From: Gekko japonicus
Lineage: Eukaryota
NCBI RefSeq assembly: GCF_001447785.1
Contig: NW_015165235.1
Span: 2,041,403 to 2,105,402 of the forward strand
Direction: 5' to 3'
Length of the DNA: 64,000 nt
Made by a program: the position numbers. Shown here one piece after another: positions 15,001 through 18,000 of this stretch. The first letter of the stretch is position 1. Each line of letters starts with the position of its first letter.

Positions 15001-18000
15001 TTTTGTCTGTCTTGTTAGATTTGAGCCTACTGTGATAATTTACTGAGATGGAAGCTCTGGATTTTTCCATTGTTGGGTTATGAAGAACACTTCCATTGTT
15101 GGGTTAAAAAAAACACTTTTCATTTCCATTTAAAAATGTCTTTATAGCTGATGGTGAGAAAGAGGATCAATTCAATGGCAGTCCTCCACGACCACAGCCT
15201 AGAGGTCCAAGGACCCCACCAGGTCCTCCTCCTCCAGATGATGATGAAGATGAACCAATGCCTGTATCAGGTACCTTCTCTGTTGATCATTATTTGTGTA
15301 CATCTACATATAAGTAGAATGAGGAATACTTCATTTTACTAGCTAGAATTGTAAGATTTCACTGGTGATATCAGTTTTCTGCTTCTAATGAAAGCATCTG
15401 TGGTTTGATGTCTAGTGATGAGTATAAATGCAGTTTCAAAATAAGGAAGAATGTCTTGAACGTGCTTTCTTTACACTCATATCCTGCAGCACAGAGTCTG
15501 TGGTGCTGTGGCTCGAGTACTGTGGTGTGGTTTGGGCAACTGTACATGTTACAAGGTTTACCAGAGAAATTAAGTGTTCAGTCCAGTTCTCTATATGCAA
15601 TAGCTGAGTTGTAGCCCAGTGCTTCTAGACTAGCATACTTTTCAGAGAATCATCCCTGGGAAATGGCTGTTGTAACAAAATATATGTGCTGGGATGCTCT
15701 ATACATTGGCTTTGGTAAACATTTTATAGCTGTTGGGATGAGAACTTTGCCTGCTTTGGGACTGCAGAACCAAAGCAAATAATTAATTTAACCAAAGTGC
15801 CTCGGCTTCCCTATCTCAAGCAGTAAGAGCAGACTGTGTATGTTTTTAAAATCTACCCACAAATCCTTGTCTTTAAGGAGTACACAGTGTATATAGAAAG
15901 ACTGTAGTTGAAGTGCAAAGGATTCTTGCAAAAGACGTTTGATTTAAATAACTTGTATTCTTCATTAACCTTTATTGTAGGTTGCTTTCATTCTGTTTCT
16001 TTTTTTTAGAAAGAAATTCCACAATTTCTGCTATACATTTTAAATATGTTGTCTTGCTTTTAATATTCGCTTCAGTGGTCGGAGAAAAAGATGATGATGT
16101 TGATCACAGGGAGGATTACTTTGAGCCCATTTCTCCTGATCGGACGTCTGTTCATCCTGAGGGCCCATATTCTGATGAAGGAGAAGTGGAAGAAGACCAG
16201 CCTGAAGAAGTGGAGGATGATGAAGAGGGGGTAGATGTTGAAGAAGAGGAGGAGGATGAAGAGGATGATGATGGTCAAACAGTAGAGAGTATTCCAGAGG
16301 ATGAAGAAGAGGAGGAGGAAGATGAGGAGGAGGAGGAAGAAGCTGATGAAGAAGAAGAAGGTGAAGGTAGGCAAAGCATAAAAGCCAAAATTATTGTAAT
16401 TGTAAGACATGTATTCATGTTATGGTAGACTAGTTGATTCTCACACTGTATGTGTGTGTAAACTGTCACTACTGGAAAGGAAATAAGAACATATGAGGAG
16501 CTATACTGGGTCAGAGCAGCATTCTGTTCCCACAGTGATCAACCAGATGTCCCCAGAAAGCATAAAAGTCCTTCTGCAAGTGGTATTCAGATGTCATGTT
16601 AAGCAACTCAGACAGAACTTTAATGGTCCCCCACTGTCAACTCAAAAATAATGCTACCACTTGATGTTATAGTGAACTAGTGCCGATCATGCATGTGTGA
16701 GCTGGGCCTGCGAGTGAAATTAATGGCTGAGAACCAAGCACTTAAATAAGCAGTGGAGAAAAAGCTTCCAAAGTGGGAACTGTGCCTTGAGGGGATATCC
16801 TGTAATTTTTCTAAAACAAACACTTTTTTTGGGGGAAAGGGAGGTTCTCAACATTTAAATATGGAAAGAGATGCTGAAAACAGTGTTATCTAGAGAAGAG
16901 CCTATAGACTTTGCACCTTTCCAGCCATTCCTGGAGGGCTTCTAGTGTCCTGGCCCCACTGATGGACCTCCTGATGGCACCTGGTATTTTTGGCCACTGA
17001 CAGAGTGTTGGACTAGATGGGCCATCGCCTGATCCAACGTTGGCTTCTCTTATGTTCTTATATTCTTAAGTAGCCTTGTGCCATAAAGGCACAGTTCTGT
17101 TCATTTGCTGTAGGGCAGCTTTTGGTCAAAATAGGGACTGTGTTGGATAGAGATCTCATTTTCTCCATACTCAAGCTAGATTATGTTGTTGCAAGAAAAT
17201 GGCTGTTCCCCCGGTTGTTGTCAGTGATGCTCAGCAAGTGATAGTCAGCAAGCTTTTGGCTTTGTTAATAATGAATGACACAAATTCTCTTCCCCGGGGC
17301 TGTACCATTTCAATTTTTTCTAAGAAATAAAAATACTCTTTAGAGTTTGAGTGCTCTTCAATGGTTCCATTCAAGCAGTTCCACCCATTTATCTCTGGAA
17401 ACAGCCCCCCCCCCCCGCTTCTATCCAGCTAAACACTGGAGAGCAACACAGCAATGGAGTTTGCATATGGGTTGGGTTAATAGTCTAAGTCCCACCAACA
17501 CCTGATCTGGCCATCACAGGCCGTGTGCTGCATTCCTTGTGAAGAGTACTGGGGTTGTAGATTAGTAGGCAAGTTTAGTTTTTCAAAGTCTTCGCTTTCT
17601 TGGAGTTCTTCCTTGGAGCATAATAATGCCTGCATGTTCCTGTGTCCTTCGATCCATATTGTTTGTCTTGGTTGCTGAAGTTGTAGAGACAGAATTGTCA
17701 GCCGACCTACTTGCCTTTGTTTTGTTTGAACTTTGCCAATCTAGTCATGTTTACTGGGAAGTAAGTCTCACTCTGTTCAGCATAGCTTACTCCCAGGTAA
17801 GTGGGCCTAGAATTAGAGCTTTAGAGAATTTAAGGCAATTGTCGTTTTGACTGAAGGAAAGTTACTAAAACCATAGGATAAGAATTTCTGATGTGCAAAT
17901 TCAAAAGAGTAATTAGGTGATGTTTTTTATCCTTTTCTTATTGGTTGCTTTTTCTCTGTATTTTCAGTGGGTGCTATGCTGCTTGTTGGTAAGTAATTCT

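What the first reader, a model, noticed from the sequence alone, without database searches (positions are those of the whole stretch)
17915..17994. Candidate in-frame 21-nt microexon in VIRMA intron 7 with an SRRM3/4-type context
Seen: a ~45-nt pyrimidine tract, ttttcag acceptor, 21-nt exon (17968-17988) and a consensus G|gtaagt donor, 190 nt upstream of exon 8. It is phase 1-1 like the flanking exons, so inclusion turns ...EEGE-GDDGYEQ into ...EEGE-VGAMLLV-GDDGYEQ. A TGC lies at 17946-17948, ~20 nt upstream of the 3' splice site. Knowledge: neural microexons (3-27 nt, frame-preserving) are activated by SRRM4/SRRM3 through such UGC motifs; the canonical human VIRMA I remember lacks this peptide. 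Inference: tissue-specific insertion of a hydrophobic motif at the end of the disordered acidic tract of the m6A writer scaffold, which could tune partner binding.
Basis: partly seen in the sequence, partly recalled or inferred. Interest (0 to 1): 0.65.

Follow-up and report, generated by a model that had tools for sequence, protein, structure and literature searches.

The report
Unproven 21-base mini-exon candidate in VIRMA
An intron of a non-human VIRMA gene holds a neat 21-base stretch flanked by good splice signals, but nothing available here shows it is ever used, and it is most likely a harmless look-alike exon.

Summary
There is a CAG acceptor at 17965-17967 and a 21-nt open stretch at 17968-17988. 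A G|GTAAGT donor sits at 17989-17994 and a TGC at 17946-17948. The 45 nt upstream are 80% pyrimidine, and the phase is 1-1 between two VIRMA exons.

The gene is a non-human VIRMA orthologue. The human reference chain has no residues at this junction.

The combination is rare in this window. It is the only such pair on either strand, against 0.03-0.09 expected per 64 kb. A whole genome would still yield many by chance.

The "SRRM3/4 context" does not discriminate. A TGC lies upstream of 54-56% of acceptor-like sites here. The pyrimidine tract is also stronger than the weak, displaced type the literature describes.

Conservation and expression are the decisive evidence, and neither could be tested with these tools. 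No paper text I saw describes a VIRMA microexon.

Most likely this is a pseudo-microexon, with about a 10% chance of being a real lineage-specific microexon.

The parts
16076..16366 (+).
   Evidence: human chain 7vf2_A residues 205-295, E 1.8e-19; VIR_N profile 198-257
17920..17964 (+). Pyrimidine-rich stretch upstream of the candidate acceptor: 80% Y over 45 nt, 85% over the last 20
   Evidence: Only 0.21% of 45-nt windows on the + strand reach this share
17929..17940 (+). Two possible branch-point adenosines in a yUnAy context, at 17929 (-39) and 17940 (-28)
   Evidence: Read by eye; no branch-point predictor was available. The AG-free zone upstream of the acceptor is 50 nt
17946..17948 (+). 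TGC at -22..-20, first of four TGCT within 40 nt (the others at 17972, 17977 and 17980, inside the candidate exon)
17965..17967 (+). Candidate 3' splice site CAG
17968..17988 (+). Candidate 21-nt exon, open in the host frame (V-GAMLLV-G with the split codons)
17989..17994 (+). Candidate 5' splice site GTAAGT preceded by G
17989..18178 (+). 190-nt interval that would be the downstream intron
18179..19325 (+). Its first 25 residues are identical to the human chain. Its donor is a GC donor (CAG|GCAAGT)
   Evidence: (7vf2_A 295-688, E 6.6e-202)

Best explanation
This is a pseudo-microexon. A strong acceptor-like site and a consensus donor-like site happen to lie 21 nt apart in the 1.8-kb intron between two constitutive VIRMA exons. 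The normal mRNA skips the stretch. At 21 nt it is too short for ordinary exon definition, so a good-looking decoy here does little harm and can persist without selection (established knowledge and inference). At most it gives low-level noise splicing. What is shown: the sites exist, the frame is open, and the human reference protein is collinear across the junction with nothing inserted. What is inferred: that the sites are not used in a regulated way.
For: GTAAGT occurs 13 times on the + strand and 11 times on the - strand. Two further GTAAGT lie in the same intron within 230 nt, at 17761 and 17797. Two of the 13 + strand GTAAGT sites (5688 and 9753) coincide with the ends of Pfam-supported exon pieces; no exon was mapped at the other 11, the candidate's included. 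Acceptor-like sites with at least 85% Y number 33 on the + strand. The expected 0.03-0.09 chance pairs per 64 kb would add up to many over a whole genome's introns. That extrapolation is mine, not a call. The 21 nt have no stop in any of the three frames when read, so the open frame carries little information. The upstream TGC does not discriminate. The 3' site is of the strong, AG-proximal type, unlike the weak displaced type described for SRRM3/4 targets. The human chain runs straight from the acidic tract into DDGYEQ at residue 295. Microexons are described as highly conserved. The encoded peptide is purely hydrophobic and sits inside an acidic tract. No VIRMA microexon appears in the passages read or in the listings.
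Against: It is the single best microexon-like pair on either strand of the window. Its acceptor has a higher pyrimidine share (0.85) than the 4 mapped real acceptors (0.45-0.80), with a 50-nt AG-free zone. Its donor is perfect at -1 and +1..+6; overall it matches 7 of 9 consensus positions, the same as 3 of the 5 mapped real donors (the other 2 match 8). The length and phase preserve the frame. The short 190-nt downstream interval would suit intron definition. Four TGCT within 40 nt put this spot in the top 0.2% of window positions (a post hoc observation). Absence from the human reference chain says nothing about tissue-specific or lineage-specific isoforms.
Confidence: 0.65

Rival explanations
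1. A genuine neural or endocrine microexon, included when SRRM3/4 bind the upstream UGC. It would insert VGAMLLV between the acidic tract and the invariant DDGYEQISSDEDG segment of VIRMA.
For: The length is within 3-27 nt and preserves the frame. The 5' splice site is strong, as described for this class. A UGC lies between either possible branch point and the AG. The AG-free zone is 50 nt, in line with the long branch-point-to-AG distances reported: medians of 45-47 nt against 34. UCUCU and UUCUU runs of the kind called PTBP sites lie in the tract. The motif assignment is recalled; one search says only that targets bear PTBP-binding sites.
Against: UGC presence is at background level (54-56%). 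The pyrimidine tract abuts the AG and is strong, whereas targets are described with weak 3' sites and tracts displaced upstream. The UGC lies upstream of the proximal tract, not between the tract end and the AG, where the preprint's UGC-addition experiment inserted its test motifs. There is no evidence of conservation and no mention in print.
Confidence: 0.05
2. A real cassette microexon not governed by SRRM3/4. It would be broadly or otherwise regulated and lineage-specific. Its strong core sites would compensate for its size, and the UGCU cluster and the UCUCU tract might serve other RNA-binding proteins. The MBNL-type YGCY and PTBP-type motif assignments are recalled, not tested.
For: Non-neural microexons are described with high pyrimidine frequency at -5..-15, as seen here. 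Four TGCT occur within 40 nt, three of them inside the exon. Both sites match or exceed the mapped real sites on the crude measures used.
Against: The chance arguments are the same as for the best explanation. The hydrophobic heptapeptide would sit in a segment whose next 25 residues are identical between this species and human, so an insertion there has no known precedent. No isoform with an insert was seen in any text read.
Confidence: 0.08
3. The sites are used only as splicing noise, or as an intronic decoy that binds U1 and U2AF without productive inclusion. They would yield rare +21-nt transcripts with no selected function.
For: The core signals are strong. The 190-nt spacing to the next exon is short. 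Perfect donors are common in this intron.
Against: Nothing here measures usage. This shades into the best explanation and differs only in whether any reads exist.
Confidence: 0.2

Closest known systems
SRRM3/4 (nSR100)-dependent neural microexons of vertebrates
   Same: The size is 3-27 nt, the frame is preserved, the 5' splice site is strong, a UGC lies between a possible branch point and the AG, and the AG-free zone is long.
   Different: The 3' site is strong and AG-proximal, not weak and displaced. The UGC lies upstream of the proximal tract. Conservation and neural inclusion are unknown. The peptide is hydrophobic and sits in an acidic disordered tract.
Pseudoexons: intronic pairs of decoy splice sites that are not spliced
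   Same: The location is intronic, the consensus-like sites have no supporting evidence of use, and site frequencies fit chance at genome scale.
   Different: It is better formed than any other pair in this 64-kb window. It is also in frame and stop-free.
Non-neural or constitutive microexons with strong core signals
   Same: The pyrimidine tract is close to the AG and both sites are strong, as described for non-neural microexons.
   Different: Such exons are normally part of the conserved protein. The human reference chain has nothing at this junction.
Recursive splice sites of long vertebrate introns
   Same: A strong acceptor and a strong donor lie close together inside an intron.
   Different: A recursive site has the GT directly after the AG and lies in a very long intron (recalled). 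Here 21 nt separate the two sites and the intron is 1.8 kb. I considered this and rejected it.

Membership tests
SRRM3/4-dependent neural microexon | Length 3-27 nt, frame-preserving, no stop in the host frame | tested here: met
   21 nt, phase 1-1, open.
SRRM3/4-dependent neural microexon | UGC motif between branch point and AG (found in roughly three quarters of targets and not strictly required) | tested here: met
   TGC at -22..-20. It does not discriminate: 148 of 264 and 110 of 205 acceptor-like sites in the window also have one. In print, 180 of 231 neural microexons have one against 353 of 691 mid-sized exons; one search gives 57/73 and 51/71.
SRRM3/4-dependent neural microexon | Weak 3' splice site with the pyrimidine peak displaced to about -15..-30 and the UGC between the tract end and the AG | tested here: inconclusive
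   The pyrimidine share is 0.85 in the 20 nt next to the CAG, higher than the 4 mapped real acceptors at 0.45-0.80. The TGC lies upstream of that run. This points against the feature, but no MaxEnt score could be computed.
SRRM3/4-dependent neural microexon | Extended branch-point-to-AG distance (medians of 45-47 nt against 34) | tested here: inconclusive
   The AG-free zone is 50 nt. yUnAy matches at -39 and -28 were read by eye. No SVM-BPfinder was available.
SRRM3/4-dependent neural microexon | Strong 5' splice site | tested here: met
   G|GTAAGT.
SRRM3/4-dependent neural microexon | Conservation of the exon and flanking intron across vertebrates | not testable with these tools
   No vertebrate genome collection is on hand. 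The human reference chain lacks any insert, which does not exclude alternative isoforms.
SRRM3/4-dependent neural microexon | Inclusion in neural or endocrine tissue, dependent on SRRM3/4 | not testable with these tools
   No expression data are available. Supplementary microexon lists are closed.
Pseudoexon (decoy splice-site pair) | Splice-site-like signals at a frequency explained by chance, with no use in mature RNA and no conservation | tested here: inconclusive
   The expectation is 0.03-0.09 per 64 kb against 1 observed, which is plausible genome-wide. Non-use and non-conservation were not testable.
Transposon-derived exonisation | Candidate exon and sites lie inside a repeated element | tested here: not met
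   No repeat family or inverted pair covers 17915-17994. A word-size-7 blastn of 17600-18178 against the window gave only short chance-level matches there. Only this window was searched, so elements with no second copy here would be missed.

The most novel reading that the evidence does not exclude
A lineage-specific, regulated 21-nt microexon of VIRMA. It would place a hydrophobic heptapeptide directly in front of the invariant DDGYEQISSDEDG segment, at the end of the acidic disordered tract. That would give the m6A writer scaffold a tissue-specific isoform. The architecture (strong AG-proximal tract, UGCU cluster) suggests a regulator other than, or in addition to, SRRM3/4.
Probability: 0.1. 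Interest if true: 0.5.

Novelty: not a real feature. Interest (0 to 1): 0.2.

Why it matters
If real, this would be the first alternative microexon reported in the scaffold of the m6A methyltransferase complex. It would sit beside a segment that is identical from this species to human, and it would give a handle on tissue-specific tuning of the complex. As it stands, it shows that a well-formed, in-frame splice-site pair with an upstream UGC cannot be told from a decoy by sequence alone. The UGC criterion in particular has almost no discriminating power in this window.

Tried and rejected
1. I tried translating 10-kb frames for Pfam to map the exons. The tool turned this down because the translations held stops. 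I sent stop-free open segments one by one instead.

2. I tried to fetch the PDB chain for a local tblastn exon map. The id was not accepted, so I dropped this and mapped only the exons found by separate searches.

3. The primary 2014 microexon paper is not held.

4. Transposon origin: no repeat covers the candidate.

5. Structured RNA: no Rfam match in the intron at E up to 1. A fold of 17880-18030 is ordinary, with z -0.76.

6. Other-strand or nested gene: only short ORFs with nothing notable.

7. Recursive splice site: rejected on anatomy.

8. Poison exon: rejected, because the stretch is in frame with no stop.

9. I did not locate the first coding exon, so the exon numbers 7 and 8 are consistent with the evidence but unproven.

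10. I left out the joined exon-microexon-exon protein. No search or structure prediction of the insert-bearing isoform was made.

Full report
**What is there**

- The 45 nt at 17920-17964 are 80% pyrimidine, and the last 20 are 85%. The tract is interrupted, not continuous.
- The acceptor reads TTTTCAG, with AG at 17966-17967.
- The candidate exon is 17968-17988 (21 nt).
- The donor GTAAGT at 17989-17994 follows a G.
- A TGC lies at 17946-17948, which is -22..-20 from the exon start.
- The interval to the next exon, 17989-18178, is 190 nt.
- The upstream exon ends at 16366 in phase 1 and the downstream exon begins at 18179 in phase 1.

**The gene**

I searched exon by exon.
- The translation of 18181-19410 matches the PDB chain 7vf2_A, 'Protein virilizer homolog', at residues 295-688 (E 6.6e-202).
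- The upstream exon, 16078-16365, matches residues 205-295 (E 1.8e-19).
- Further open segments match residues 673-838, 942-1131 and 1209-1295.
- Pfam VIR_N pieces lie in order at 5572-5688, 9604-9753, 11732-11824 (with an identical copy at 12390-12482), 13611-13790, 15108-15314 and 16078-16365. They cover profile positions 18 to 257.

I did not locate that exon.

The alignments show many substitutions against the human chain, and the window carries repeats of a non-human kind. I do not take the window for human. No contig was fetched from any collection.

The human chain runs from the end of the acidic tract straight into DDGYEQ at residue 295, so the reference human protein has no insert here. 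The first 25 residues of the downstream exon are identical between this species and human. The truncated chain 7yg4_A starts near human residue 380, so the insertion point lies outside that construct.

**Is it more than chance?**

I scanned both strands for YAG acceptors with a pyrimidine-rich 20 nt, followed within 3-27 nt by a donor.
- With at least 80% or 85% pyrimidine and GTAAGT, the candidate is the only hit on the + strand. There is none on the - strand.
- Loosening the donor to GTRAGT at 80% pyrimidine adds one 6-nt pair on the - strand.
- At 70% pyrimidine there are 6 pairs (+) and 5 pairs (-), of which 2 and 2 have a length that is a multiple of three.
- Treating the sites as independent, 33 acceptors and 7 G|GTAAGT donors on the + strand give 0.09 expected pairs per 64 kb, or 0.03 in frame.
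- With the 45-nt criterion there are 9 acceptors, and my arithmetic gives about 0.025.

I set these thresholds after seeing the candidate, so the figures flatter it. Extrapolated over the introns of a vertebrate genome (my inference), even 0.01-0.03 per window means on the order of a hundred or more in-frame decoys of this quality. The literature counts a few hundred alternative microexons per species: 249 neural and 403 non-neural in chicken. Only a small share of those would meet such strict criteria.

GTAAGT itself occurs 13 times on the + strand and 11 times on the - strand. Two of the + strand sites (5688 and 9753) coincide with the ends of Pfam-supported exon pieces. Two others lie in the same intron, at 17761 and 17797.

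**Comparison with mapped real sites**

- Acceptor: the candidate's pyrimidine share is 0.85 and its AG-free zone is 50 nt. The 4 mapped real acceptors have shares of 0.45-0.80 and AG-free zones of 16-61 nt.
- Donor: the candidate matches 7 of 9 consensus positions and is perfect from -1 to +6. Three of the 5 mapped real donors also match 7 of 9, and 2 match 8.

On these crude measures the sites are as good as the real ones. No MaxEnt or branch-point tool was available.

**The SRRM3/4 context**

I took the class features from passages of 10.1101/2024.09.17.613571, from sections 3 and 19 of 10.64898/2026.01.16.699960 and from passages of PMC10551640. They describe:
- a UGC between branch point and AG in about three quarters of targets, which is not strictly required;
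- a long branch-point-to-AG distance;
- a strong 5' site;
- a weak 3' site, with the pyrimidine peak displaced to -15..-30;
- PTBP sites;
- high conservation.

The candidate meets the size, frame, 5' site and UGC criteria. The UGC carries little weight, though. A TGC lies within -42..-3 of 148 of 264 (+ strand) and 110 of 205 (- strand) acceptor-like sites in this window. In print it is found upstream of 180 of 231 neural microexons but also 353 of 691 neural mid-sized exons.

The pyrimidine run abuts the AG and the TGC lies upstream of it. That looks more like the non-neural or ordinary type. If the exon is used at all, its architecture argues for a regulator other than SRRM3/4.

One post hoc oddity: four TGCT lie within 40 nt, three of them inside the 21 nt. 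That puts the spot in the top 0.2% of window positions. YGCY clusters are recalled as MBNL-type sites; I did not test this.

**Other readings checked**

- No repeat family covers the candidate.
- No Rfam family matches in the intron.
- The local RNA fold is ordinary, with z -0.76.
- No notable ORF lies on either strand.
- It is not a recursive site, because 21 nt separate the AG from the GT and the intron is 1.8 kb.
- It is not a poison exon, because it is in frame with no stop.

**Literature**

- The search for VIRMA with 'microexon' found 10 papers holding both terms, 8 listed.
- KIAA1429 with 'microexon' found 6, 5 listed.
- VIRMA with SRRM4 found 5, 4 listed.

I read passages of three: PMC11605454, PMC8605363 and PMC12652946. 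None describes a microexon within VIRMA. They treat VIRMA as an interaction partner, a knock-down target or a writer component. I saw the others only as listings. Supplementary tables are closed, and lists of microexons may bear on this claim.

**What stayed unchecked**

- Conservation in other vertebrates and any expression evidence. No vertebrate genome, transcript or read collection is on hand.
- VIRMA isoforms with an insert.
- The joined exon-microexon-exon protein.
- The two N runs (471 N in all). I left them alone.

**Verdict**

The interpretation cannot be decided with these tools, and the specific SRRM3/4 argument is weak.
- The most likely reading is a pseudo-microexon, skipped in the normal mRNA and at most a source of noise splicing (about 0.65, or about 0.85 counting noise-level use).
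- A real regulated microexon of any kind has a probability of about 0.1.

Noticed in passing
Only this site puts the next exon (start 20524) in frame with the human-matched residues, so this is a GC-AG intron.
   Followed up: partly
window 11596-12253 and 12254-12911: A tandem duplication with a period of 658 bp, 99-100% identical. Each copy carries the same VIR_N-matching coding piece (11732-11824 and 12390-12482). This is either an assembly artefact or a very recent duplication of an exon.
   Followed up: partly
window 38842-39574 and 40034-40768: A second tandem duplication with a period of about 1192-1194 bp and exact runs of 411 and 321 nt. I did not examine its content.
   Followed up: no
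window 42211-42323 (-) and 3617-3701: An Rfam 5S_rRNA match just above the gathering score (40.3 against 38 bits). An 85-nt copy at 3617-3701 is 89% identical to 42222-42306. This is probably a 5S-derived SINE and not an rRNA gene.
   Followed up: no
window 16933-16995 (the same intron), 1894-1956, 61950-61997: A dispersed repeat piece lies in the same intron as the candidate, with inverted copies elsewhere in the window at 92-94% complementarity. It lies about 1 kb upstream of the candidate and does not overlap it.
   Followed up: partly
window 17761, 17797, 17989: Three GTAAGT hexamers lie within 230 nt of one intron, out of 13 on the whole + strand. The first two lie in a stretch with weak similarity to 14153-14199 and 58482-58506.
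   Followed up: partly
window 17946-17983: Four TGCT lie within 40 nt, three of them inside the 21-nt candidate. This is the top 0.2% of window positions and was noticed after the fact.
   Followed up: partly
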